Virus record (IMG/VR): IMGVR_UViG_3300020187_001966
Reading direction: 5' to 3' (one strand)
Origin: a virus
Taxonomy: Duplodnaviria > Caudoviricetes
DNA: 64,000 nt
The position numbers were made by a program, and so were the translations under genes. Positions 18,517-59,719 of the stretch are shown piece by piece. The notes beneath the pieces were generated by a model. The model ran no database searches, was not told the DNA's origin, and was given only the letters and a program-made list of their open reading frames with translations. Numbering within the stretch: position 1 is the first letter of the stretch; the number at the start of each line of letters is the position of its first letter.

Positions 18517-18647
18517 TACCTAATGACAAGAATTGATAGATAAGAAGTAAAACACAAAATTTATTATTAAAATGCTCTAGTGGAAACACTAGAGCATTTT
18601 TCTTGCGACCAATAAATATTGGTGAGTGAGAAAAGGACACACAATTA

Positions 18648-18992
18648 ATGGAAAATATAATATTTGGATTAGCAATGACTGCTCATTTAGGTCTTGCTGG
18701 TGAGTATAATGAAATACACCCACATGTACGTTATGAAAATGATAATGTAATTGCTGGAGCATTTGTAAATAGTATAGACAATATATCATTATATGCAGGT
18801 AGACGATTTGAACACGATAACTTTGGATTTGAATTGACAGCCACAACTGGATATCTTAGTTTAATAGTTCCCCAAGTACGTGGCACATACGATGTACATA
18901 ATAATGTAAGATTGTTTGTCGGAAATGCTGTTGAAAAAATACAAGGCAAAATTAAACCAGGAGCAGTTGTTGGTATCGAGCTATTATACTAA
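18648..18992 (+). CDS. small putative beta-rich envelope protein, paralog of 23194-23538
   Basis: AHLGLAGEYN..HPHVR shared with 23194; alternating aromatic strands. Confidence 0.65.
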   Translation: MENIIFGLAMTAHLGLAGEYNEIHPHVRYENDNVIAGAFVNSIDNISLYAGRRFEHDNFGFELTATTGYLSLIVPQVRGTYDVHNNVRLFVGNAVEKIQGKIKPGAVVGIELLY

Positions 18993-19014
18993 ATATAGTT
19001 GGAGACAACATTAC

Positions 19015-19500
19015 ATGAAAATACAACACGTAATTGGCATGTTATCCCTTACTTGGTTAAGTATGTTAGTACCAAGTACGGCGGCTGCCGACTTAACACA
19101 CAGTTTTAAAAACCCTAGTTTTAGTGGCATTGGGTATAGTGCCCACGTACTTAGTATTGAGCAATTGGGATTCAATAGACAAAAAGATATTGATGATGAA
19201 GCTCAACGTGAAGCTGATCGTATTGAGCGTGAACTTGAAAACACTACTCTCAATAAATTTATTAAAAACTTAGAATCAAGAATCTATGCTACACTGAGTA
19301 AACAAATGGTGGACAATATGTTTGCTGCTTGTGGTGAAGAAGGACAACCGGATTGTGCTAATAGTGGAACGACTGAAGTTGAAGGTGCTACTATTTCTTG
19401 GACCAAGGATGAGGCATCTGGCAGTATTACACTAATTATTGACGGCGCCGATGGTTATACAGAAATAACTATTCCAGGATCTGGGGAGTTTAACTTTTGA
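19015..19500 (+). CDS. csgF: curli assembly protein CsgF-like
   Basis: Signal peptide then DLTHSFKNPSFSGIG; directly upstream of csgG; ATG 19015 behind GGAG. Confidence 0.75.
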   Translation: MKIQHVIGMLSLTWLSMLVPSTAAADLTHSFKNPSFSGIGYSAHVLSIEQLGFNRQKDIDDEAQREADRIERELENTTLNKFIKNLESRIYATLSKQMVDNMFAACGEEGQPDCANSGTTEVEGATISWTKDEASGSITLIIDGADGYTEITIPGSGEFNF

Positions 19501-20315
19501 AGCTAATAACAACAATAATACTTACTGTATTTCTGGCTGGGTGTAGTAATTACAATCCAAAATTACCTAAACCATTACAACGTCCAGCAAACTTACAGGA
19601 AAACCCACTAGTAACAGAACTGAATCAGTTAAAGCCATTAAATGGTCCTGTTATGACTGTTGGAGTATATAGCTTTACAGATAAAACTGGACAACGTAAG
19701 CCAGCAGACAATATTGCTAACTTATCTAGCGCAGTAACACAGGGTGCTGAAGTTTGGGTAATAGATGCGTTGCTACAAGCAGGCGAAGGCACTTGGTTTG
19801 AGGTTGTGGAACGTGTAGGCATGGATAACGTTATTAAAGAACGTCAGTTAATACGTAACACAAGGCAAAATTATGAAGCAGAAGACGCTACCCCACTTCC
19901 GCCAATGAAGTTTGCTGGTATATTAGTTGAGGGTGGCATTGTAGGCTACGATTCAAATATTACCACAGGCGGAGCAGGTGCTAGATACTTTGGTCTTGGA
20001 TCAGCCGCAGAGTATCGTATTGATACAGTAACAGTTAGTATGCGATTAGTTAGCGTAAGCAGCGGCCGTGTATTGGTGAGTGTAGCCGCAGAAAAATCTA
20101 TTGCTAGTTATCGCACAGCTGGAGATGTATTTAAGTTTTTAGACCTTGGCACTAAAGCATTGGAAGTTGAAAGTGGTTACAGCGTAAACGAGCCAGTAAA
20201 CTATGCTGTAAGGGAAGCTATTGAAGCAGTAGTGATAGAAATTATATGTCAAGGTGTTGAATTGGGCTTATGGCAATGGGAAGAAAGCGAATCTCATCTA
20301 GAAGGTGAGCATTAA
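19497..20315 (+). CDS. csgG: curli secretion channel CsgG
   Basis: Lipobox LAGC; VYSFTDKTGQRKP, SSAVTQGA, FEVVERVG...KERQLIR, GGIVGYDSN..TGGAGARYFG. Confidence 0.92.
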   Translation: MKLITTIILTVFLAGCSNYNPKLPKPLQRPANLQENPLVTELNQLKPLNGPVMTVGVYSFTDKTGQRKPADNIANLSSAVTQGAEVWVIDALLQAGEGTWFEVVERVGMDNVIKERQLIRNTRQNYEAEDATPLPPMKFAGILVEGGIVGYDSNITTGGAGARYFGLGSAAEYRIDTVTVSMRLVSVSSGRVLVSVAAEKSIASYRTAGDVFKFLDLGTKALEVESGYSVNEPVNYAVREAIEAVVIEIICQGVELGLWQWEESESHLEGEH

Positions 20316-20530
20316 CTTAAAATGAAATGGATTTTAATATCATTAGCAGTTATAATAGGTGGTATAGTATATCATACATTACAATCACGTAGTCAAATAT
20401 TTTGGCAACAAGTTGGCCCCAATACAGATAAGGCGTTAAATCCAGATACCCATAATAACTAATATACTTTAGTATATCTGCCCAATTTCACCCACATTTC
20501 ACTAAATATAAGTGTGAGAGTGAGATCTAT

Positions 20531-21298
20531 ATGCAGAAAAAATTATTAAGTAGTGCCATAATGGCAATAGTGTTTACAACATTAGCATCGTTATCAGTAA
20601 TGGCTAATGAAATATATATAACACAAATTGGGGATAGTCTAGATTTAGATATCACTCAAGACGGACAAAACAACGAATTTGGAGACAGCACTACAGACGC
20701 TGGGCTCTATGGCGATAATATGGTGTTTAGTATAACACAAACTGGTGATACAAACACTATTGACGCAATTATTGCTGGTGACAGTTATACAGGTACCTGG
20801 GTGTTTACTGGAAATAGTAACAATGTTGACCTATTATGTGACAGCACAGCAACAATTGGTGGTGGCAATTGTGATAATGTAACATTAAATATTACTACAA
20901 CAGGTGATGACAACAACTATGACTTTAAGATTGGTGAAACTACTGATGGCGGTGATGCCACTGTTAACTTTACAATTGATGGTGATGACAACCTGATACA
21001 AATGGACTTGGATGGAACTGATGCTAATGTTACTGTAGAAATTGACAACAGCGCATCAACAGCAAGTGGATCAACAATTACAAGCGCAACTGATACTAAC
21101 CTAAGTACTAATTCTCCAGGTAACATTATTGATTTAAATATTGATGGTAATGGTGATACTTTAGGACACACTGTAACATTAGATATAACAGGTGGTGGTA
21201 GTGTATATACTATTACACAAAGTGGTATCTACGATAACCTAGTAGATATAACTTCAACTGGGGACGGTAACACAGTTGATATTACACAATCCGATTAA
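20531..21298 (+). CDS. curlin-like secreted repeat protein
   Basis: Signal peptide, NEIYITQIGD, repeated Q/T-x-G-D-x-N beta-arc units, Asp/Thr/Asn-rich. Confidence 0.7.
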   Translation: MQKKLLSSAIMAIVFTTLASLSVMANEIYITQIGDSLDLDITQDGQNNEFGDSTTDAGLYGDNMVFSITQTGDTNTIDAIIAGDSYTGTWVFTGNSNNVDLLCDSTATIGGGNCDNVTLNITTTGDDNNYDFKIGETTDGGDATVNFTIDGDDNLIQMDLDGTDANVTVEIDNSASTASGSTITSATDTNLSTNSPGNIIDLNIDGNGDTLGHTVTLDITGGGSVYTITQSGIYDNLVDITSTGDGNTVDITQSD

Positions 21299-22406
21299 AC
21301 TTATATGTATAATATTTGTTGCTCTAGCATACGTAAGTATAGCTAGGGCAACTCCTATTGGAGCGGTTGCTGAATCTTCTGGCACAAGTACAATTAAACG
21401 TGATAAAGAAGCATACACTGGCGAAGTAGGTCTTGGCTTACAAATGAACGATAATATTGCTACTGGTAAAGGTAAATTGCGTTTAGACTTTGTAGACGAT
21501 ACTAGAGTAGATGTTACTGAAAATAGTCGTATGACTATTGATGAGTTTATATACGATCCAGCTAGTGGAACAGGTGCTCTTAGTATGAAAGCAACACTAG
21601 GCGCAGTACGTTATGCTAGTGGACAAATAGCAAAGAATTCAAGACAACGAGTAAACATAAGAACGCCAAGTGCTAAAGTTACAGTGCGTGGTACAGACTT
21701 TATGATGATTGTAGATGAGATAGGCGGCAGTATGATAACACTATTGCCCAGTTGTGATGAAAGTGGATTATGTGTAACTGGTGAGATTAGTGTTGAGAGC
21801 GATGTGGGAATGGTTATTATGAATCAAGCATTCCAAACTACTATAGTTTCACACAGTGGTGCTGTTCCAAAGCCAGGAGTTGTACTAGACTTACCAGAAA
21901 ATATGCTTACAGCAATGTTAATTGTACGTAAAGTATCACCTTACACAGAAGAGATAATAAAACAAAAACCACCTACTGATATATTAGACATTGACTTTTT
22001 AGAGTTTGACGAACTAGACAGTGATCCATTAGTTGATGGTATTAAAAATATTTGGGTAACTGATTTAGATAACACAACTTACCTAAATTCAGAGTTTATA
22101 GATCAATTGGAAAAACAACTTGCTGAAATACTATCAAAATGGTTTGATAGTCTAGGAACACAAAATGTAGAGTTTTTTCAGGATAAGTTTTTTGGATTAG
22201 ATCCAGATACAAATATATTTTATGATGAGGAATATCCTTATTTTGTAGTAAGTCGCAAAGAAGGAGATCAACATTTCTTTCAATTAAATTTAAGCCAAAG
22301 TCACAGCTACAATGTAGACTTTGTTCAAGGAGGGTTTTATGAATACGGTTTTAAAGTGGGTGTTGGTTCCTCTAACAGTATTGTTATCAATCAAAACAAC
22401 TACTAG
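21276..22406 (+). CDS. FecR domain-containing protein
   Basis: LQMNDNIATGKG...F.DDT...VTENS, IRTPSAKVTVRGTDF; start uncertain. Confidence 0.8.
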   Translation: MILHNPIKLICIIFVALAYVSIARATPIGAVAESSGTSTIKRDKEAYTGEVGLGLQMNDNIATGKGKLRLDFVDDTRVDVTENSRMTIDEFIYDPASGTGALSMKATLGAVRYASGQIAKNSRQRVNIRTPSAKVTVRGTDFMMIVDEIGGSMITLLPSCDESGLCVTGEISVESDVGMVIMNQAFQTTIVSHSGAVPKPGVVLDLPENMLTAMLIVRKVSPYTEEIIKQKPPTDILDIDFLEFDELDSDPLVDGIKNIWVTDLDNTTYLNSEFIDQLEKQLAEILSKWFDSLGTQNVEFFQDKFFGLDPDTNIFYDEEYPYFVVSRKEGDQHFFQLNLSQSHSYNVDFVQGGFYEYGFKVGVGSSNSIVINQNNY

Positions 22407-23193
22407 TTGGGCAAATGAAATATGGATTAGACAAGTTGGTGATAATATAGATATGACTATCACTCAAGATGGCGCTAACAATAAGATAACTGGTTCGGGC
22501 GGTAAAGCTCAAGTAAGTGGTAACAACACAAGCACTACATATGCGCAAACAGGTGACAATAATCAAGTGTGGGCGTGGATGAGTTCTGGTAATGGAATAA
22601 ACAATGTGTCGCAAATAGGCGATAACAACTCAGCAAGTTTAGATTGCCATGGTAATAATTGTGTTATTGATATTGAACAAAATGGCAACTATAACTATGC
22701 ATATGCCGAACTAGGCAATGGTGGTGATTATAATCAAACTATTATTGTTGATCAAGATGGTAATTACAACTTTGCAAAAGTAGAAGCAAACGGTGATGAT
22801 AATACTATTACTGTAGACCAAGATGGTAACAATCATATAGTACATGGGTATGGCAACACACCAATAACTGGTGATAGAAATAACATTACACTTGTACAAG
22901 ATGGATCACAATACAATCAAGCTCAGGCGAAGGTTGTTGGAAATGATAATACAATAGATGGATATCAAGGTGGACAATATAACTTTGGTAGACTGGTACT
23001 AACGGGTAACGACCATGATGTGACGAGTTCACAGGAAGGTACTGGATCTCATAGTATGACTTTAGACCTCACCAATGGTGGTGGGGCGTATACTGTAAAT
23101 ACAACACAAGACAGCACAACTAATCAATCATACAGTTTAACAGGGATCTGTACAAACACAATAGGATGCGCTATTAGCGTAACACAAAATTAA
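22339..23193 (+). CDS. curlin-repeat protein (CsgA/CsgB-like)
   Basis: About 22-aa repeats Q.GDNN.A...Q.G..N; signal peptide; AAGGAGG RBS before ATG 22339. Confidence 0.8.
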   Translation: MNTVLKWVLVPLTVLLSIKTTTSWANEIWIRQVGDNIDMTITQDGANNKITGSGGKAQVSGNNTSTTYAQTGDNNQVWAWMSSGNGINNVSQIGDNNSASLDCHGNNCVIDIEQNGNYNYAYAELGNGGDYNQTIIVDQDGNYNFAKVEANGDDNTITVDQDGNNHIVHGYGNTPITGDRNNITLVQDGSQYNQAQAKVVGNDNTIDGYQGGQYNFGRLVLTGNDHDVTSSQEGTGSHSMTLDLTNGGGAYTVNTTQDSTTNQSYSLTGICTNTIGCAISVTQN

Positions 23194-23538
23194 ATGGAAA
23201 TATTATATGGAATAGCATTATCAGCACACTTGGGGTTAGCTGGTGATTACAACTTATCACACCCACACGTTAGACTACAAGACAATCAATTTATTACAGG
23301 TATATATGTTAACAGTATGAATGATATCAGTGTATATGGTGGTGTGAAGTTTGATTATGACAATTTTTGGGTAGAGGGCGCACTAGTTACTGGATACAAT
23401 AACAGTAATATTAGTCCATACATTAGAGTAGGCAAAGAAATTTATCAAGACAATAGTGTATTCGTCGCACCAGCTTTGGAATCATTTGGAGAAAACAATA
23501 TCGGTATAGTTATTGGAATTGAATTTTTAAGTAAATAA
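23194..23538 (+). CDS. small putative beta-rich envelope protein, paralog of 18648-18992
   Basis: AHLGLAGDYN..HPHVR, NSM..ISVYGG, ends GIEFL. Confidence 0.65.
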   Translation: MEILYGIALSAHLGLAGDYNLSHPHVRLQDNQFITGIYVNSMNDISVYGGVKFDYDNFWVEGALVTGYNNSNISPYIRVGKEIYQDNSVFVAPALESFGENNIGIVIGIEFLSK

Positions 23539-23701
23539 ACTTACTACAGATCCAGTGAGAGGGGCAAAATGTCGCATAACCAAAATCCCATGGACCCAAC
23601 AGACTGGCTATGGCTGTGTATAATGCTCGCAGCCATATGTACGTTTTGTATATGGGTGTTTATATAATAAATACTGGGAGAAAATATAAGGATGATAAAT
23701 T

Positions 23702-23956
23702 ATGGCACTGCCAAACTACGAACTAACAATACCATCTACAGAACAAAAGATATCTTACAGGCCCTTTCTTGCAGAAGAGCAAAAGGTATTATTAGAAACA
23801 TTAACTATTTCAATAGAGTCTCAAAACCCATTACAGATGTTTAACGCAATTGTTAATACTATTGATGCTTGTGTTACTTCTGATATTGAAGTGTCTCAAC
23901 TTTCAAAGTCTGATTTAAAATATATATTCACTCAAATTAAATCAAAGTCAGCATGA
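23702..23956 (+). CDS. T4 gp26-like baseplate hub assembly protein, N-terminal fragment only
   Basis: MALP.YELTIPST..KI.YRPFL.EEQK.LL...DLKYIF..IKSKS then stop; 84 aa. Confidence 0.7.
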   Translation: MALPNYELTIPSTEQKISYRPFLAEEQKVLLETLTISIESQNPLQMFNAIVNTIDACVTSDIEVSQLSKSDLKYIFTQIKSKSA

Positions 23957-24150
23957 CAACACGATTGAACGATACACCCAACAGCAGAAAATTGACCGCA
24001 GACGAAGAATTGCTAAAGTTAGAAAAAGTTTACATTCATCGTCACCGGCCAGGCAAGAAGATAAATCGTCCAAAGTATTGTCCAGTAGTGGAATTTATAC
24101 CAGGGGTTAAGAACCCAGACTATTATCAAAAGCCAATAAAGCCGTCATAG
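23953..24150 (+). CDS. hypothetical protein
   Basis: Coupled 65-aa ORF. Confidence 0.5.
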   Translation: MTTRLNDTPNSRKLTADEELLKLEKVYIHRHRPGKKINRPKYCPVVEFIPGVKNPDYYQKPIKPS

Positions 24151-24210
24151 AAAAGAATACAAGAAATGCTGAAATGGAACACATTAAAGCAAAACTAATG
24201 AGGAAAAAAC

Positions 24211-24615
24211 ATGAATACTAAATTTAGTATAGGTGTTGTAATTACAATAGTACTACAAGTTAGTGCGTTTGTATGGTGGACAGCACAACAAGCACAGACA
24301 ATTAGTCAACTCGAATCAGAGATGGCAGAACTTACAGCAAGAACAGAAGTTGAAAAAGAAGTTACATTAATTAACGATGTAAAGCAGTTACGTAAGGATT
24401 TAGATGACCTTAAAGCAAAAACACTTGACGGTATTTTAGAGATTGATAACATGCGTATTAGTGAAGACAATAGACTAGGTGAATATATTGACCGTAGATT
24501 GGCAGACCTAATTGGTGAATTACAAACTACATTCACAACACATGAGGTTTGGATAGACGAGCTTGAATTAGTAGATGACGAAATAAAAACACAGTTATCA
24601 GACCACCAGCATTAA
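24211..24615 (+). CDS. membrane-anchored coiled-coil protein
   Basis: N-terminal TM then heptads; GAGGA RBS. Confidence 0.65.
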   Translation: MNTKFSIGVVITIVLQVSAFVWWTAQQAQTISQLESEMAELTARTEVEKEVTLINDVKQLRKDLDDLKAKTLDGILEIDNMRISEDNRLGEYIDRRLADLIGELQTTFTTHEVWIDELELVDDEIKTQLSDHQH

Positions 24616-24624
24616 GGATTAATT

Positions 24625-26667
24625 ATGCGTAAGATATTATTCTCTCCAATATGGAGTGTGCTTGTACTACTACTTCTTACTTGGGTGTATAGTAGTAACC
24701 CAGTATTTCTAGATAGTTTAAGGTTGAGATACTTTGACCAACTAATAGTAAATCAAGAGCCAATTGAAAATAACATATACACTGTTAACATAGACGAAGC
24801 AAGTTTAGAAGAAAAAGGACAATGGCCCTGGCCACGTGGAGACTATAGTGAGTTAATTATAGACTTATATGACCGTGGTGCTGGCTTAGTTGTGTTTAAT
24901 GTACTAATGGCTGAAACTGATCGAGCAGGAGAGGATCAAGATTTAGCATTAACAATGCAACAGTTACCAGTTATCCTAAACATGCTGGGCGCAGATGAGA
25001 ATAAAAACGAAGCAATTAATCCTGGTGCTACTATTGTTAATAGTGACTTTATGTACCTTATACCCAGCCGTGAAGGTGTTATAGCAAACGTACCAGACAT
25101 AGAATTTTCATCAGTTGGCAGTGGCATCGTAGATACATTCCCAGAAGCTGATGGTGTAACAAGACGTATGCCAATGGTTATAGAAAGCCAAGGCACACTT
25201 TATCCAAGTGTTACAATGGAAGTATTACGAGTTATTGCTGGAGATCCTAGTTTTCAGATTAAGTTAAATGAATTTGGTGTTGACAAACTACGCATACCAC
25301 AGTTTGGTATTATACAAACAGATGGACTTGGGCGTGTTTGGATTGACTGGAGTCAAAAGAATAAAAGTTATAGCACAACAAACTTACCAGACGACTTTGA
25401 TGGCGGCATAGTATTTGTTGGCCCAACAGCGGCAGGTGTTTCACAGCCAGTAGCAACAGCGGCGGGCAGTATATACCCACACGAAATACATGCCACTATA
25501 CTTGGCACAGTGTTTAACAAAAGTAATATTGAACGACCTGCTTGGGCTTTTGATGCTGAAATGTTAGGCTTCTTATTAGTAGGACTTTTTGTTATTGTAC
25601 TAGCACGTTGGACTTATGCTGGCATTATAGTATTTGTAGTCGCAGTAGGTGGTTCAATATTTTATAGCATATATAGTTTTAATAACTATAACTATTTGAT
25701 TGATGGCGCTACATCTAGTGCCTTTTTAATACTAGTGGGCATGACTAGGTATATAGTTAAATTTGTAGATGAATTCCTACAAAAACAAGAAATTAAGAAA
25801 CAGTTTGGCGGATACGCATCACCTACAGTTGTTAAACTACTACAAGAAAATCCAGCACTCATTAAAGATGGTGTAAAGAAAGAAGTTAGTATCGTGTTTA
25901 GTGACTTGCGTGGCTTTACTCCACTAGGTGAGAGTTTTGGTGACGATGTAAAAGGCCTAACTAAAATAATGAATGGCTACATGGATAGTATTACACAGCC
26001 TGTATTAGACAGTGATGGAATGATTATTAAGTATATAGGCGATGCTAGTATGCACATACACAATGCGCCTATAGATGATCGTCACCATCCAAGAACCGCA
26101 GTACAATGTGGATTAGATATGTTAGCGGCAGTGGATAAATTTAATGAAGAAGTTATTATTCCACAAGGTAGACCAGCAGTAGGCATGGGCGCAGGTATCA
26201 ATACAGGACTTGGTTATATTGGTGAGATGGGATCAACAGCTAGACACAGTTATGATGTTTTGGGAGACGCAGTAAGTACTGCCGCACGTATTGAATCAAA
26301 ATGTAAAGAGTACGGATGTTTACTACTAGTAGGCGATGCTACATACCAAACAACTAAGTCAGACTTCTTTTACTTAAAGATAGATGACTTAGCAGTTAAA
26401 GGCAAGAGTGTTGGTGTTGGTATATGGACAGTATTAGATCAGAAGCGTCCAGCTTGGCGTAAAGCACAAAAGAAACACCAAGATATGTATGAAGACTATC
26501 TGGCGCAAAGATTTGATGACGCAATAGACAAGTGTAAGATGTTACATGATCACTTTGACGGACAAATGGCTGGCTACTATGATATGTGGATTGAGCGTTG
26601 TGAATTCCAAAAGACACAAGACTTACCTAAAGATTGGAATGGCGTGTTTTTTGCCCAAACCAAGTAA
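24625..26667 (+). CDS. CHASE2 domain class III adenylate/guanylate cyclase
   Basis: VNIDE.SL...GQWPWPR, DGVTRR, 3 TM, FSDLRGFT, KYIGDA, GINTG, YDVLGDAVSTAARIE. Confidence 0.93.
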   Translation: MRKILFSPIWSVLVLLLLTWVYSSNPVFLDSLRLRYFDQLIVNQEPIENNIYTVNIDEASLEEKGQWPWPRGDYSELIIDLYDRGAGLVVFNVLMAETDRAGEDQDLALTMQQLPVILNMLGADENKNEAINPGATIVNSDFMYLIPSREGVIANVPDIEFSSVGSGIVDTFPEADGVTRRMPMVIESQGTLYPSVTMEVLRVIAGDPSFQIKLNEFGVDKLRIPQFGIIQTDGLGRVWIDWSQKNKSYSTTNLPDDFDGGIVFVGPTAAGVSQPVATAAGSIYPHEIHATILGTVFNKSNIERPAWAFDAEMLGFLLVGLFVIVLARWTYAGIIVFVVAVGGSIFYSIYSFNNYNYLIDGATSSAFLILVGMTRYIVKFVDEFLQKQEIKKQFGGYASPTVVKLLQENPALIKDGVKKEVSIVFSDLRGFTPLGESFGDDVKGLTKIMNGYMDSITQPVLDSDGMIIKYIGDASMHIHNAPIDDRHHPRTAVQCGLDMLAAVDKFNEEVIIPQGRPAVGMGAGINTGLGYIGEMGSTARHSYDVLGDAVSTAARIESKCKEYGCLLLVGDATYQTTKSDFFYLKIDDLAVKGKSVGVGIWTVLDQKRPAWRKAQKKHQDMYEDYLAQRFDDAIDKCKMLHDHFDGQMAGYYDMWIERCEFQKTQDLPKDWNGVFFAQTK

Positions 26668-26721
26668 CTTTTTGTAGCAACTTCTAAATAAATAAAACTA
26701 TAGTTATTTGTGAGAGGATAC

Positions 26722-27207
26722 ATGATGCAGAATAATGAATATGACGTAGTCGTAATTAAAGTAGTGGATGGCGATACAGTAGACGTAGATATTGATCTAG
26801 GGTTTGGTGTTTGTTTAAAAGACGAGCGTGTGAGAATTATGGGCATTGATACGCCCGAGTCACGCACCAGTGATAGAGTAGAAGATTTGTTTGGCGAAGC
26901 AGCTAAAGCAAGACTTAAAGAACTTATGAAACACGGCGGCAAACTTATTACTACAGAAGATAAGCATGGCGAAGACATGAAGGGTAAGTTTGGGCGTATC
27001 CTTGGAGACTTTAAAGTAGACTACAATGGTGAGATGAAAAAAGTTACTGAGATCATGGAAGCAGAAGGACATTGCGTTCCTTACTTTGGTGGAAGTAAAG
27101 AAGAAACACAAGCCGCACACCAAGTAAACCGTGTACGTTTGCTAAACGAAGGTATTGTAACTCAAGAAGCATACGATGCCGCAGTTGAGAAGATGAAAAA
27201 TAAGTGA
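26722..27207 (+). CDS. thermonuclease (SNase-like) family protein
   Basis: KVVDGDTVDVDIDLGFG...RVRIMGIDTPESRT, GKFGRILG. Confidence 0.85.
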   Translation: MMQNNEYDVVVIKVVDGDTVDVDIDLGFGVCLKDERVRIMGIDTPESRTSDRVEDLFGEAAKARLKELMKHGGKLITTEDKHGEDMKGKFGRILGDFKVDYNGEMKKVTEIMEAEGHCVPYFGGSKEETQAAHQVNRVRLLNEGIVTQEAYDAAVEKMKNK

Positions 27208-57484: not shown

Positions 57485-59719
57485 ATGTCACAAAACGACC
57501 CAAAAATAGAAGCACTAGTAGAACGCCTATTTCAATTGACTCGAGGGTACAAACATGAATATGTTACACTAGAACATCTACTAGCTATATTGCTGGAAAC
57601 AGAAGAAGTACAGGATATTTTCTATGATATTGACAAAGATCCAAAGGTAACTAGAGATCTAGTTATCACTTATCTAGAAACTGAAGTTGATAGTATTGAC
57701 AAGGAAGAGTTTCAACCACAAAAGACAGTTATGCTAGAGCGTGTGTTTAATCGTGCGTTTACACAAGCAATGTTTAATGGTAGACAGAAACTTGACCCAC
57801 GTGACTTGCTTATTAGTATCTTAACAGAAGAGCAATCGCCATCTGTTGTATTGCTAAATCAACTTGACATTACTAGAGAAGACTTAATCTCATATCTAAC
57901 TAATGAAGCAACTGAAGAAGCAGAAGCTAATACTCGTGATAAACCATTAAAGCAAGAACGTATACTAGAAAAGTTTTGTGACAATCTAAATATGTTAGCT
58001 AATAATGGTGAAATTGATCCTATGATTGGTCGAGAAACTGAGCTTGAGCAACTTGTACAAACTATTGCTAGACGTAAAAAGAACAACGTTATCCTAGTAG
58101 GCGAAAGTGGTGTTGGTAAAACTGCTATTGCTGAAGGACTAGCACATCTAATTAATGAAGATCGTGTTCCGGATGTTATTAAAGACAATACTATCTATAG
58201 TTTGGATATTGGTTCACTACTAGCAGGTACTAAGTTTAGAGGTGACTTTGAAGAACGTCTTAAAGAAGTTTTGGATGTACTAGAGCGCCGTGACGATGCT
58301 ATCTTGTTTATTGATGAGATTCATATGATTATGGGAGCAGGCAGTGCTGGACAAGGAGCAATGGACGTTGCTAACTTACTAAAGCCAGCATTACAAAAAG
58401 GCAAACTACGTTGTATTGGTAGTACAACATATGACGAGTATCGTGAAACCTTTGAAAAAGACAAAGCACTTAATCGTCGTTTTTATAAAGTAGATATTCC
58501 AGAGCCCACAGTGGGGGATGCTAAACGTATTGTACGTGCTGCTATTCCAGCATATGAATTATATCATGAACTAGCATACGACCAAAAGGCATTGGATGGT
58601 GCTGTTGACTTAACACACCAATACTGGCACAACCGTCAGTTACCAGATAAAGCATTTGATGCTCTGGATGCGGCGGCGGCAAGACAAGCATTACTACCAA
58701 TAGAAGATCGTAAGAGTGTACTAGAGCTTGATGACATCCGTTATGAGGTTGCTAAACTAACACGCATTCCAGTAGATCAATTAGTGCTAACAAAAGACAG
58801 TGAGTACAAAACTGAAAAGCCAGTTGATATTGAACGTATTGTTACATCAAAAGTATTTGGACAAGACGAAGCTATTACAAGACTAGCAGATAGTATCTAC
58901 ATTGCTAAAGCAGGACTTAAAGATCCAAACAAACCAGTTGGCAGTTACTTGTTTACAGGACCAACAGGTGTAGGTAAAACAGAAACAGCAAAACAACTTA
59001 GTGATGCTATGAGTATGCCACTTGTACGTTTTGATATGAGTGAATACCAAGAGCGTCATACAGTTGCTAAACTAATTGGTGCGCCTCCAGGATACGTAGG
59101 TTATGGCGAAGGTGGACAAGGCAGTGGGTTGCTGGTAAACAAACTAGAAGAAAATCCAAACTGTATCTTGTTGCTAGATGAGATTGAAAAGGCACACCCA
59201 GATGTAAGTAATGTATTGCTACAACTTATGGACAATGGTATGATTACAAATAGTGAAGGCAAAAGTGTTAGCGCACGTAATGCGATTGTTATCTTAACCA
59301 GTAACTTAGGTGCTAGAGATGCTGAACGTAATACAATTGGGTTTGGTGATAACGATAATACAACAGCAAGTAATGAAGCAGTTAAACGTTTCTTTAGTCC
59401 AGAGTTTCGTAACCGCTTAGACGCAGTTGTACAGTTTAATAAACTAGATAAGACATTAATGAAACAAGTTACTAATAAGTTTATTAAAGAGTTGCGTGAT
59501 ATGTTAACACCACGTGGTGTGGCAATGTCGCATAGTACACAAGTTCTTGATTGGTTAACTGATAATGGATTTACTCCTAGTATGGGAGCAAGACCAATGG
59601 CACGTTTAATTAATGAAAAGATTAAAAAGCCACTTGCTAAAACATTACTATTTGGTAACGACATTACTAAAGTACACCTAGAGATTGTTGATGATGAGAT
59701 TGTGATTCAAACAAGTTAA
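57485..59719 (+). CDS. clpA: ATP-dependent Clp protease ATP-binding subunit, ClpA type
   Basis: HEYVTLEHLL N-domain; GESGVGKT and GPTGVGKT Walker A; IGFG ClpP-docking loop; GARPM; 744 aa. Confidence 0.92.
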   Translation: MSQNDPKIEALVERLFQLTRGYKHEYVTLEHLLAILLETEEVQDIFYDIDKDPKVTRDLVITYLETEVDSIDKEEFQPQKTVMLERVFNRAFTQAMFNGRQKLDPRDLLISILTEEQSPSVVLLNQLDITREDLISYLTNEATEEAEANTRDKPLKQERILEKFCDNLNMLANNGEIDPMIGRETELEQLVQTIARRKKNNVILVGESGVGKTAIAEGLAHLINEDRVPDVIKDNTIYSLDIGSLLAGTKFRGDFEERLKEVLDVLERRDDAILFIDEIHMIMGAGSAGQGAMDVANLLKPALQKGKLRCIGSTTYDEYRETFEKDKALNRRFYKVDIPEPTVGDAKRIVRAAIPAYELYHELAYDQKALDGAVDLTHQYWHNRQLPDKAFDALDAAAARQALLPIEDRKSVLELDDIRYEVAKLTRIPVDQLVLTKDSEYKTEKPVDIERIVTSKVFGQDEAITRLADSIYIAKAGLKDPNKPVGSYLFTGPTGVGKTETAKQLSDAMSMPLVRFDMSEYQERHTVAKLIGAPPGYVGYGEGGQGSGLLVNKLEENPNCILLLDEIEKAHPDVSNVLLQLMDNGMITNSEGKSVSARNAIVILTSNLGARDAERNTIGFGDNDNTTASNEAVKRFFSPEFRNRLDAVVQFNKLDKTLMKQVTNKFIKELRDMLTPRGVAMSHSTQVLDWLTDNGFTPSMGARPMARLINEKIKKPLAKTLLFGNDITKVHLEIVDDEIVIQTS

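What the first reader, a model, noticed from the sequence alone, without database searches (positions are those of the whole stretch)
18648..26667. Curli-type secretion locus interleaved with a FecR-domain gene and followed by a CHASE2 nucleotide cyclase
Seen: csgF-like, csgG, curlin-like, FecR-domain, curlin-repeat, then within 1.5 kb a CHASE2 class III cyclase, with late-type promoters at several points. No csgE, csgC or csgD is recognisable. Established: CsgG/CsgF export amyloid curli. As I recall, csgFG clusters were reported in marine pelagimyophage genomes. FecR-domain proteins and CHASE2 cyclases form trans-envelope signalling sets in alphaproteobacteria. Inference: a phage surface-fibre system may be wired to cAMP/cGMP signalling, for example sensing contact or secondary infection, aggregating infected cells, or shielding receptors.
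Basis: partly seen in the sequence, partly recalled or inferred. Interest (0 to 1): 0.72.

Follow-up and report, generated by a model that had tools for sequence, protein, structure and literature searches.

The report
Known phage curli–FecR–cyclase module
An uncultured marine T4-like phage carries the already published "viral curli" cassette (outer-membrane pore, two fibre subunits, a FecR-fold protein and a membrane receptor cyclase); the genes and their linkage are real, and the new detail is that the FecR protein ends in a curlin-type module, so it may physically link the fibre to the cyclase.

Summary
The gene calls hold: CsgF, lipoprotein CsgG, two Sec-exported curlin paralogs, a FecR-fold protein between them, and a CHASE2 class III cyclase 1.4 kb downstream. 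Two details fail. The ORF at 18648 is not csgF but a leaderless 8-stranded beta-barrel, with a paralog at 23194. Late-promoter motifs occur at chance frequency.

The cassette is syntenic in Melnitz, HTVC008M and IMG/VR contigs: FecR follows csgG in 59/59 loci, the cyclase in 37/38. It was described, FecR and cyclase included, by Wittmers et al. 2022 (PMC9599517). This scan has also noted it before on other DNA (68 notes, at least 46 genomes). It is a new member of a known kind.

What I add:
- The FecR protein is a chimera. It has a PupR-like FecR domain, a poorly modelled segment with a conserved acidic Leu-rich motif, and a C-terminal module homologous to the curlin C-termini (hhalign E 8e-6; shuffles far lower).
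- In the alphaproteobacteria sampled, FecR and CHASE2 cyclase are never near csgG. There the FecR domain heads giant RTX/cadherin adhesins beside the cyclase.
- Most phage cyclases carry a derived active-site pair (Asp544/Ser551, against Ser or Thr with Asn in 84/84 bacterial relatives).

Function remains untested. Fibre-to-cyclase coupling is inference.

The parts
18648..18992 (+). p114a: leaderless 114-aa predicted 8-stranded beta-barrel. Not csgF. Paralog of 23194-23538.
   Evidence: No Pfam or NCBIfam hit. 44% identical to p114b, E 1e-30. The fold was predicted on its paralog. ATAAATA lies 36 nt upstream.
19015..19500 (+). CsgF homolog with a Sec signal peptide. The mature N-terminus carries an F-x-N-P-x-F-x-G type motif. 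Its stop overlaps the csgG start (TTGA).
   Evidence: PF10614, E 1.2e-12, 48.6 bits against a cut-off of 25.8. N-terminus read. No direct phmmer hit to solved CsgF.
19497..20315 (+). CsgG outer-membrane lipoprotein pore (lipobox LAGC). In the constriction loop the Asn is kept, E. coli Phe becomes Leu and Tyr becomes Ala.
   Evidence: PF03783, E 9.5e-52. E 3.5e-49 to E. coli CsgG structures 3X2R/6L7A, with alignment.
20322..20462 (+). 46-aa ORF with one hydrophobic helix. It is uncertain whether it is a real gene.
   Evidence: Hydropathy segment 1-22. Only a sub-threshold Pfam hit.
20531..21298 (+). cur1: Sec-exported curlin-family subunit with degenerate repeats.
   Evidence: Signal peptide. 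Paralog of cur2, E 4e-18. The phage cur1 HMM hits curlins in 7/7 alphaproteobacterial csgFG loci. Contigs from RNA libraries of two studies cover 20585-21295.
21276..22406 (+). FecR-curlin chimera. Signal peptide; FecR beta-domain (about 29-217); low-confidence segment 219-270 with a conserved acidic Leu-rich motif; helix 272-300; C-terminal beta-hairpin module 307-373 homologous to the curlin C-termini. Overlaps cur1 by 23 nt and cur2 by 68 nt.
   Evidence: PF04773, E 9.3e-8. AF2 model, pLDDT 73. PupR CCSSD Z 15.4 and BDI_1681 Z 14. hhalign to the cur1 C-terminus Prob 84%, E 8e-6, score 36, against at most 14 in 40 shuffles. The C-terminal HMM hits only FecR and curlin families among viral ORFs.
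22339..23193 (+). cur2: Sec-exported curlin-repeat subunit with about ten Q-x-G-x-x-N type repeats. AGGAGG lies 6 nt before ATG 22339.
   Evidence: PF07012, E 6.6e-12. E 1.1e-12 to the chain of PDB entry 8C50, deposited as a curlin associated repeat-containing protein. Sub-threshold CsgA/CsgB NCBIfam hits at 2e-9 and 2e-10. Upstream sequence.
23194..23538 (+). p114b: second copy of the leaderless 8-stranded beta-barrel. Starts directly after the cur2 stop.
   Evidence: AF2 pLDDT 87.8, pTM 0.78, eight strands. Best PDB matches are OmpA-TM, NspA, OmpX, Ail, PagP and designed TM barrels, TM 0.4-0.6. AFDB cluster relatives have 20-30 extra N-terminal residues.
23702..23956 (+). 84-aa N-terminal fragment of a T4-type baseplate protein. 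A remnant inside the variable insert between cur2 and the cyclase.
   Evidence: PF12322, E 7.9e-15, profile positions 2-77 of 219. Matches the baseplate genes of Melnitz and HTVC008M.
23953..24150 (+). 65-aa basic ORF of unknown function in the insert.
   Evidence: No Pfam hit. Weak relatives before the cyclase in L010, L021 and L076.
24211..24615 (+). 134-aa protein with one N-terminal TM helix. The remainder looks coiled-coil-like to my eye on the sequence (untested). It ends 10 nt before the cyclase gene.
   Evidence: Hydropathy segment 3-25. Only sub-threshold Pfam hits. No relatives in the fetched loci.
24625..26667 (+). CHASE2 receptor class III nucleotide cyclase. N-terminal TM helix, periplasmic CHASE2 (about 25-325), a hydrophobic TM cluster beginning near residue 306, the cyclase domain (418-595) and a conserved C-terminal extension.
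   Evidence: PF05226, E 4.2e-38 and PF00211, E 2.4e-16. Alignment to CyaB 3R5G and Cya2 2W01. Catalytic residues D427, K469, D473, D544 and R555 kept, with S551 in place of Asn. Hydropathy.

Best explanation
This is one more copy of the published viral type VIII secretion ('phage curli') module of marine T4-like phages. During infection the phage makes a CsgG lipoprotein pore with CsgF in the host outer membrane. It exports two curlin-family subunits (cur1, cur2) through Sec and then through the pore, which gives the infected cell curli-type fibres that these streamlined hosts reportedly do not encode (reported for Pelagibacter and OM43; this phage's host is unknown). Built into the same co-transcribed block is a two-part envelope sensor taken from a different alphaproteobacterial system: a periplasmic FecR-fold protein and a CHASE2 receptor cyclase. 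The FecR protein is not an iron regulator. It has no anti-sigma domain, and its C-terminus is a curlin-type module. I infer that it binds to, or is templated by, the curlin subunits or the fibre, and reports their state to the periplasmic CHASE2 domain, which controls cAMP (or related cNMP) synthesis in the cytoplasm. No phage-encoded cNMP receptor was found, so the signal would act on host proteins. Shown: gene identities, export signals, conserved linkage, the chimeric build of the FecR protein, separate bacterial origins of the two halves, and presence in RNA libraries. Inferred: fibre formation, FecR-CHASE2 contact, the nucleotide made, and the benefit to the phage.
For: Sec or lipoprotein signals on CsgF, CsgG, cur1, the FecR protein and cur2 are read from the sequence. 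The same order is annotated in Melnitz and HTVC008M. In IMG/VR loci found through CsgG, FecR lies within 4 kb downstream in 59/59 and the cyclase within 11 kb in 37/38; 43 distinct FecR sequences were recovered. Gene overlaps cur1/FecR (23 nt), FecR/cur2 (68 nt) and csgF/csgG (TTGA) point to coupled expression. Phage curlin HMMs hit the curlins of 7/7 alphaproteobacterial csgFG loci. The FecR fold matches PupR at Z 15.4. The FecR C-terminus is homologous to the curlin C-termini and its terminal I-x-I-x-Q is invariant or nearly so in 42 sequences. FecR/CHASE2 pairing in bacteria: 27/80 loci, PMC5192318 and PMC5498481. In those bacteria the FecR domain heads RTX, cadherin or Big_9 giant proteins, so it is likewise joined to an adhesin-type protein that is presumably surface-exposed (RTX repeats; type I secretion genes stand beside some of these cyclases). 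The cyclase keeps D427, K469, D473, D544 and R555, and Ser551 is conserved in 26/31 phage sequences down to 39% identity, which argues for selection rather than decay. Near-identical DNA occurs in at least 8 marine or estuary studies, and contigs from four RNA libraries of three studies lie on the block. The cassette with FecR and the cyclase is published: PMC9599517.
Against: No experiment anywhere shows fibres. Buchholz et al. saw no clumping of Melnitz-infected OM43 cells (PMC9004378). The canonical transition-state Asn of the cyclase is Ser, so activity and product are uncertain. No cNMP-binding domain was found in Melnitz, HTVC008M or three large related contigs, so the receptor is unknown. 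A 1.4-kb variable insert that holds a baseplate gene fragment separates cur2 from the cyclase here, so the cyclase need not share the curlin transcript. RNA-library contigs cannot exclude carried-over DNA. The similarity between the FecR C-terminus and the curlins is weak at sequence level (hmmsearch E 1e-4 to 5e-3).
Confidence: 0.6

Rival explanations
1. Two co-inherited but functionally separate modules. The T8SS makes fibres or a pore, with the FecR protein acting only as a periplasmic curlin chaperone or adaptor in place of the missing CsgE or CsgC. The CHASE2 cyclase independently senses an unrelated envelope cue.
For: CsgE and CsgC are absent, so an adaptor is needed. The FecR C-terminus resembles curlins, which suits a subunit-binding chaperone. 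A variable 0-7 kb insert lies between cur2 and the cyclase across loci. Wittmers et al. report that podophage versions often lack the cyclase (PMC9599517).
Against: FecR-domain proteins and CHASE2 receptors are neighbours in unrelated bacteria that have no curli (PMC5192318), so the pair predates its union with the T8SS. The cyclase follows in 37/38 myophage-type loci.
Confidence: 0.2
2. Pore-only reading (Buchholz et al. 2022). CsgG/CsgF is a repurposed gated pore, pinholin or secretin that times lysis or moves small molecules, and no fibre is made.
For: No aggregation was seen in Melnitz infections (PMC9004378). A possible late-promoter-like motif stands before the block at 18612.
Against: That paper assumed csgA and csgB are missing. 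Two Sec-exported curlin paralogs are present here and in every relative. They match bacterial curlins and the curlin-repeat protein chain of PDB entry 8C50. Keeping two substrates and CsgF is hard to explain for a bare pore.
Confidence: 0.1
3. Iron or cofactor reading. FecR is a ferric-citrate-type regulator and the channel imports siderophores or cofactors, an alternative raised in PMC9599517.
For: The Pfam family name. The fold is shared with the PupR and FecR anti-sigma periplasmic domains.
Against: The protein has a signal peptide in place of a cytoplasmic anti-sigma domain plus TM helix. No ECF sigma factor or TonB-dependent transducer is in the block. Its bacterial relatives head RTX or cadherin adhesins or sit beside CHASE2 receptors, not iron loci.
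Confidence: 0.04
4. The repeat proteins are virion beta-helix fibres, not secreted substrates.
For: Repeat-rich beta proteins are common in tail fibres. A baseplate gene fragment lies nearby.
Against: Both carry N-terminal Sec-type signal peptides followed by a shared mature N-terminus. They sit between csgG and the cyclase in all relatives. They are homologous to curlins of bacterial csgFG loci.
Confidence: 0.03

Closest known systems
Viral T8SS/curli module of pelagiphages and methylophages (HTVC008M KC465899; Melnitz MZ577097; HTVC023P-type podophages; Zaragoza-Solas 2020 PMC7029224, Buchholz 2022 PMC9004378, Wittmers 2022 PMC9599517)
   Same: Same genes in the same order: csgF, csgG, curlin, FecR, curlin, adenylate cyclase. 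About 70% nucleotide identity to Melnitz over parts of the block. CsgE, CsgC and CsgD are lacking.
   Different: This copy adds two leaderless beta-barrel paralogs that flank the curli genes (found only in a small subclade). It also has a 1.4-kb insert with a baseplate fragment and a TM protein (its soluble part coiled-coil-like by eye, untested) before the cyclase. 'CHASE2' occurs in none of the three papers' main texts, and 'C-terminal' not at all in Wittmers et al., so neither the CHASE2 domain nor the curlin-like C-terminus of the FecR protein appears to be described there.
Bacterial curli systems (E. coli CsgBAC/DEFG; alphaproteobacterial csgFG-curlin loci)
   Same: CsgG lipoprotein pore (E 3.5e-49 to E. 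coli CsgG), CsgF, and curlin-repeat substrates with signal peptides. Phage curlin HMMs hit the curlins of alphaproteobacterial loci.
   Different: No CsgE, CsgC, CsgD or recognisable CsgH. FecR and the CHASE2 cyclase are absent from 7/7 sampled bacterial csgFG loci. The genes are encoded by a lytic phage.
FecR-domain / CHASE2 receptor gene pairs of proteobacteria (Burkholderia LysM-FecR + CHASE2 histidine kinase; P. aeruginosa homologs; S. meliloti smc02177 + CyaD1; alphaproteobacterial loci L084-L153)
   Same: A secreted FecR-fold protein is encoded next to a CHASE2 membrane receptor. The closest bacterial cyclases (about 30% identity, full length including the C-terminal extension) are alphaproteobacterial.
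   Different: In the bacteria the FecR domain is fused to LysM, or heads 900-1900-aa RTX/cadherin/Big_9 proteins, sometimes with type I secretion genes alongside. In the phage it is fused to a curlin-type module and embedded in a T8SS. The bacterial cyclases have Ser or Thr at 544 with Asn551, whereas most phage ones have Asp544 with Ser551.
FecR/PupR anti-sigma regulators of cell-surface signalling
   Same: The periplasmic beta-domain fold (PupR CCSSD Z 15.4, rmsd 2.6 over 134 residues; BDI_1681 Z 14).
   Different: No cytoplasmic anti-sigma domain and no partner sigma factor or TonB-dependent transducer. The C-terminal domain is different.

Membership tests
Type VIII (curli) secretion system | CsgG-family outer-membrane lipoprotein | tested here: met
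   PF03783, E 9.5e-52, covering 5-208 of 210. Lipobox LAGC. E 3.5e-49 to solved E. coli CsgG.
Type VIII (curli) secretion system | CsgF accessory protein adjacent to csgG | tested here: met
   PF10614, E 1.2e-12, above the curated cut-off. Signal peptide present. Stop and start overlap with csgG.
Type VIII (curli) secretion system | Sec-exported curlin-repeat substrate(s) | tested here: met
   cur2: PF07012, E 6.6e-12 and E 1.1e-12 to the 8C50 chain, deposited as a curlin associated repeat-containing protein. cur1 is its paralog. Both have signal peptides. Their HMMs hit bacterial curlins.
Type VIII (curli) secretion system | Substrates form extracellular amyloid fibres | not testable with these tools
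   Needs Congo red/ThT, EM or cryo-ET. Buchholz et al. saw no clumping (PMC9004378).
Type VIII (curli) secretion system | CsgE, CsgC and CsgD (enterobacterial accessory and regulatory set) | tested here: not met
   No hit in any ORF of the block. No CsgE or CsgC in five related records. These genes are also missing from many non-gammaproteobacterial curli loci (Dueholm 2012, as cited in PMC7029224), so they do not define the system at large.
Viral T8SS module (Wittmers et al. 2022) | Order csgF-csgG-curlin-FecR-(curlin)-adenylate cyclase on a phage genome | tested here: met
   Phage context is shown by T4-type genes and by similarity to Melnitz and HTVC008M.
FecR-type anti-sigma factor | N-terminal cytoplasmic anti-sigma domain plus a single TM helix | tested here: not met
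   Only PF04773 at residues 59-150. The N-terminus is a cleavable-looking signal peptide.
FecR-type anti-sigma factor | Adjacent ECF sigma factor and TonB-dependent transducer | tested here: not met
   None among the neighbouring ORFs.
FecR-type anti-sigma factor | Periplasmic FecR beta-domain fold | tested here: met
   PupR CCSSD Z 15.4; BDI_1681 Z 14.
Class III nucleotide cyclase | Six canonical catalytic residues (two metal Asp, Lys and Asp/Ser/Thr for the base, Asn and Arg for the transition state) | tested here: inconclusive
   D427, K469, D473, D544 and R555 are present, but Asn is replaced by Ser551. The replacement is conserved in 26/31 phage homologs and absent from 84 bacterial ones. 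Activity must be measured.
CHASE2 receptor | Extracytoplasmic CHASE2 domain between an N-terminal TM helix and a TM cluster | tested here: met
   PF05226, E 4.2e-38, covering 4-254 of 257. Hydrophobic segments at 3-23 and from about 306.
RTX-adhesin periplasmic retention module (MpIBP RIN, LapA type) | Fold like RIN (PDB 5IX9) at the N-terminus of a protein that crosses an outer-membrane pore | tested here: inconclusive
   Z 7.1, rmsd 2.3, 73 of 76 residues, on model residues 25-120. That is below the level at which a shared arrangement is safe. Identity of 5IX9 taken from PMC5550230.
Small 8-stranded outer-membrane beta-barrels (OmpA-TM/OmpX/PagP type), for p114a and p114b | Eight-stranded barrel fold | tested here: met
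   AF2 pLDDT 87.8 with eight strands. Foldseek probability about 1.0 to OmpA-TM, NspA, OmpX, Ail and PagP, but TM only 0.4-0.6.
Small 8-stranded outer-membrane beta-barrels (OmpA-TM/OmpX/PagP type), for p114a and p114b | N-terminal signal peptide for Sec/BAM delivery | tested here: not met
   The ORFs start at strand 1 and no upstream in-frame extension is possible. Cellular structural relatives carry 20-30 extra N-terminal residues.

The most novel reading that the evidence does not exclude
The FecR protein may be a trans-pore tether that turns the phage fibre into a contact or load sensor. On this reading the folded FecR domain stays in the periplasm, as the N-terminal retention domain of RTX adhesins does. 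The conserved acidic linker threads the CsgG/CsgF channel. The curlin-type C-terminal module is templated into the cur1/cur2 fibre outside. Fibre growth or pulling would then be passed through the FecR domain to the CHASE2 ectodomain and converted into a cyclic-nucleotide signal in the infected cell. The derived Asp544/Ser551 active site might also change which nucleotide is made. The same logic, a FecR domain at the periplasmic end of a surface filament beside a CHASE2 receptor, would then explain the giant FecR-RTX adhesin/cyclase pairs of alphaproteobacteria.
Probability: 0.15. Interest if true: 0.75.

Novelty: new member of a known kind. Interest (0 to 1): 0.3.

Why it matters
The cassette is reported as abundant in ocean viromes: about 0.1% of assembled viral proteins and present at all 65 GOV2.0 stations (PMC9599517). 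This variant recurs near-identically in marine and estuary metagenomes from 2014 to 2025. It would give infected cells of streamlined bacteria a surface structure that they reportedly do not encode themselves (Pelagibacter and OM43; the host of this phage is unknown), so its function bears on aggregation, superinfection and carbon export.

As a discovery, the finding itself is not new. What may help is the architectural reading. FecR here is not an iron regulator. It is the periplasmic half of a FecR/CHASE2 sensor pair, and in phages it has been fused to a curlin-type module. That gives a concrete, testable link between fibre and cyclase. It also points to an unstudied bacterial pairing of FecR-headed RTX adhesins with CHASE2 cyclases.

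Tried and rejected
1. Complex prediction of the CHASE2 ectodomain (residues 22-330, alignment A1) with the FecR protein (26-376, alignment A2). The verdict was 'no answer', score 0.00 in two runs. This is no evidence either way.

2. Strict T4 late-promoter search (TATAAATA): none in the block, 6 in the window against 8.8 expected. Sigma-70-like sites are at chance level, 42 against 39.7. Terminator-like sites number 10 against 4.2 expected, but none sits convincingly at a gene end.

3. phmmer of CsgF against solved structures gave no CsgF hit. The Pfam profile was needed.

4. NCBIfam gave nothing for CsgF, the cyclase, p114 or the 134-aa TM protein.

5. Phage-derived HMMs for CsgF, CsgG, the curlins and p114 found nothing within 10 kb of 80 bacterial cyclase loci. 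No CsgG was found in five of those genomes.

6. The FecR C-terminal HMM found no bacterial ORF in the fetched loci.

7. No whole genome is held for the window, so the window's own genome could not be searched for a cNMP receptor. Five relatives had none.

8. The VIA second look tested only residues 25-217 of the FecR model well.

9. The ESM Atlas lead from p114 to PagP (0.92, 163 shared features) falls below the level the tool treats as reliable.

10. RNA-library contigs of X10 and X12 cover the whole block at flat depth, so they cannot separate transcription from carried-over DNA.

Full report
**What the window is**

Plus-strand coding predominates and GC is 35-40%. Matches include PHROG families (dehydrogenase, PRPP synthase, a Lon-like protease) and a permuted tmRNA. 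The block shows about 70% nucleotide identity to Methylophilales phage Melnitz and 67% to Pelagibacter phage HTVC008M. Together these place the window in an uncultured T4-like marine myophage. No whole genome is held for it. Related IMG/VR contigs reach 237-300 kb.

**The observation**

Pfam confirms most of the listed genes:
- CsgF: ORF 18916-19500; the signal peptide and the conserved mature N-terminal motif fit a start at ATG 19015.
- CsgG: 19497-20315, with lipobox LAGC and E 3.5e-49 to E. coli CsgG structures.
- A FecR-domain protein: 21276-22406.
- A curlin-repeat protein: 22339-23193.
- A CHASE2 plus class III cyclase protein: 24625-26667.

The first 'curlin-like' gene (20531-21298) falls below Pfam's cut-off. 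It is nevertheless a clear paralog of the second (E 4e-18). Both curlins begin, after a Sec-type signal peptide, with the same mature N-terminus. The second curlin matches the chain of PDB entry 8C50, deposited as a curlin associated repeat-containing protein, at E 1.1e-12.

No CsgE, CsgC or CsgD is present in the block. The complete records of five relatives also lack CsgE and CsgC.

Two details do not hold:
- The ORF at the stated start (18648-18992) is not CsgF-like. It is 44% identical to the ORF at 23194-23538. Both are leaderless 114-aa proteins, and the copy that was folded (p114b) gives with good confidence (pLDDT 87.8) an eight-stranded beta-barrel of the OmpA-TM/OmpX/PagP type.
- The 'late promoters' are not above chance. 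No TATAAATA lies in the block. Three ATAAATA sites do, but the window holds fewer of these than shuffles do.

**Linkage**

Melnitz and HTVC008M have the same six genes in the same order, annotated as such in GenBank. I fetched 76 IMG/VR loci through CsgG (44-78% identity). Among them:
- A FecR homolog follows csgG within 4 kb in 59 of 59 loci with enough sequence.
- The cyclase follows within 11 kb in 37 of 38.
- 43 distinct FecR sequences were recovered.

The distance between the second curlin and the cyclase varies because of inserts. Here the insert is 1.4 kb. It holds the second barrel gene, an N-terminal fragment of a T4 baseplate gene (PF12322, profile positions 2-77 of 219), a 65-aa ORF and a 134-aa single-TM protein. 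Within the core the genes overlap: csgF/csgG (TTGA), cur1/FecR (23 nt) and FecR/cur2 (68 nt, with AGGAGG before the cur2 ATG).

**Prior knowledge**

- Zaragoza-Solas et al. 2020 reported csgFG in pelagimyophages and proposed 'sibling capture' (PMC7029224).
- Buchholz et al. 2022 described the Melnitz genes, assumed csgA and csgB were missing, and proposed a lysis-timing pore (PMC9004378).
- Wittmers et al. 2022 described the full cassette in podo- and myophages: CsgF, CsgG, CsgA/B, FecR, a second CsgA/B and an adenylate cyclase. They traced its alphaproteobacterial affinities, its presence at all 65 GOV2.0 stations and its expression, and stated that FecR and the cyclase are not part of bacterial T8SS operons (PMC9599517).

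None of the three papers' main texts contains 'CHASE2', and they read FecR as an iron regulator. This scan has itself noted the cassette 68 times in at least 46 genomes, with the same verdict. The finding is therefore a further member of a known module.

**Where the two halves come from**

The closest bacterial relatives of the cyclase are full-length alphaproteobacterial CHASE2 cyclases at about 30% identity, in Bradyrhizobium, Terasakiella, Thalassospira and Rhodospirillales MAGs. None of these 80 loci has CsgG, CsgF or curlins within 10 kb. A FecR-like ORF lies within 10 kb in 27 of them and within 1.5 kb in 16.

These bacterial FecR proteins are mostly 900-1900 aa. The FecR domain sits at the N-terminus, followed by RTX repeats, cadherin-like, Big_9, Laminin_G or BapA-prefix domains. 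Several of the closest cyclases sit beside type I secretion ABC/HlyD genes.

Conversely, seven alphaproteobacterial loci with strong CsgG matches have CsgF and curlins that the phage curlin HMMs recognise (E 1e-6 to 1e-35). None has FecR or a cyclase within 10 kb. Within these samples, the union of the T8SS with the FecR/CHASE2 pair is specific to phages.

**The FecR protein**

The AlphaFold model (pLDDT 73) shows these parts:
- A signal-peptide helix.
- A beta-domain at residues 29-217. It matches the periplasmic domains of PupR (Z 15.4) and BDI_1681 (Z 14). Its first half matches, more weakly, the periplasmic retention domain RIN of the Marinomonas RTX adhesin (5IX9, Z 7.1).
- A low-confidence segment at 219-270 that carries a conserved acidic Leu-rich motif.
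- A helix at 272-300.
- A C-terminal module of beta-hairpins at 307-373.

Profile-profile comparison aligns this C-terminal module end-to-end with the last roughly 70 residues of cur1 (Prob 84%, E 8e-6, score 36) and of cur2 (E 1.2e-4, score 31). Forty column shuffles scored at most 14, and the reversed profile scored 12-17.

An HMM of the module, searched against all ORFs of the viral loci, hits only FecR-family and curlin-family proteins. All three proteins end in the same hydrophobic-x-hydrophobic-x-Gln strand, which is invariant or nearly so in 42 FecR homologs. Two first-stage notes of this scan had guessed this from sequence (e1-5320905, e1-5400949); here it passes a control.

There is no anti-sigma domain, no sigma factor and no TonB-dependent transducer, so the protein is not a FecR-type regulator in the iron sense.

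**The cyclase**

Alignment to CyaB (3R5G) and Cya2 (2W01) shows both metal-binding Asp, the Lys, the Arg and an Asp at the base-specifying position. The transition-state Asn is Ser551.
- Among 31 distinct phage homologs, 26 share Asp544 with Ser551.
- Five (the HTVC008M type) have Ser544 with Asn551.
- All 84 bacterial relatives have Ser or Thr at 544 with Asn551.

The pair is therefore a derived, conserved change in one phage lineage, not decay. Activity and product need measuring. No cNMP-binding domain is encoded by Melnitz, HTVC008M or three large related contigs, so any receptor would be the host's.

**Occurrence and expression**

Near-identical DNA is held by runs of at least eight marine or estuary studies from 2014 to 2025. 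Two metatranscriptome runs of one study cover the whole block at flat depth, which cannot exclude DNA. In two other studies the longest RNA-library contigs cover cur1 almost exactly (20585-21295). This is a weak hint that cur1 is the most abundant message.

**Reading**

The best-supported explanation is that the phage equips the infected cell with a curli-type secretion pore and two fibre subunits. The FecR/CHASE2 pair is an envelope sensor recruited to this machine, and the curlin-type tail of the FecR protein is the physical link.

In both the bacterial systems and the phage, the FecR domain is joined to an adhesin- or fibre-type protein (presumed surface-exposed in the bacteria) and encoded beside the CHASE2 receptor. 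This parallel is the main argument for coupling, and it is inference. The complex prediction gave no answer.

The rivals are listed with their tests: separate modules with FecR acting as a curlin chaperone, a pore-only lysis timer, an iron regulator, and virion fibres. The boldest reading still open is a trans-pore tether that makes the fibre a contact or load sensor. I put it at about 15%.

**Verdict**

The novelty is that of a further member of a known module with some new architectural detail. Function is still unknown experimentally.

Noticed in passing
window 18648-18992 and 23194-23538: Two paralogous leaderless 114-aa predicted 8-stranded beta-barrels flank the curli genes. Relatives occur only in a small subclade, at varying places in the cassette (after cur2, before csgF, or before the cyclase). 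Cellular structural relatives have an extra 20-30 N-terminal residues. How a barrel without a signal peptide would reach a membrane is unexplained.
   Followed up: partly
window 23702-23956: An 84-aa ORF is the N-terminal third of a T4-type baseplate protein (PF12322, E 7.9e-15), stranded between cur2 and the cyclase with an ATAAATA motif 35 nt upstream. In Melnitz and HTVC008M the full baseplate gene lies a few kb beyond the cyclase on the other strand, so this looks like a rearrangement scar.
   Followed up: partly
L084-L153 (bacterial loci), e.g. L084:5090-9883, L131:4670-9868, L115:2964-6740: In alphaproteobacteria, giant RTX/cadherin/Big_9 proteins with an N-terminal FecR domain are encoded directly upstream of CHASE2 adenylate cyclases. 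Other close cyclases sit beside type I secretion ABC/HlyD genes (L079, L081, L083, L089). A full-text search for 'CHASE2' together with 'RTX adhesin' found no paper.
   Followed up: partly
window 24625-26667, residues 544 and 551; loci L004-L076: There is a co-varying active-site pair in the phage cyclases. Asp544/Ser551 occurs in 26 of 31 phage sequences, against Ser544/Asn551 in the HTVC008M type and Ser or Thr with Asn in all 84 bacterial relatives.
   Followed up: yes
window 22576-23104: In RNA-library run X10 a 529-nt contig of a variant cur2 (20 differences) has depth 188, against about 25 for the rest of the block. This may be a related strain's highly expressed curlin or an assembly effect.
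   Followed up: no
window 26710-27207: A staphylococcal-nuclease-like gene (PF00565, E 4.9e-9) follows the cyclase. Its homolog sits on either side of the cassette in relatives (L003, L004, L010, L017, L070).
   Followed up: no
window 57485-59719: A 744-aa ATP-dependent protease gene (phrog_4871, E 1.9e-246), unusual cargo for a phage.
   Followed up: no
window 20322-20462: A 46-aa single-helix ORF lies between csgG and cur1. Several close relatives have a gap of about 380 nt at the same place, so it may be a conserved micro-gene.
   Followed up: no
L014 and L076 (IMG/VR contigs of 237 kb and 300 kb): Some carriers of the cassette are contigs far larger than Melnitz or HTVC008M (141-147 kb). 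CheckV estimates them as 67-86% complete, so the module also lives in jumbo-sized relatives.
   Followed up: no
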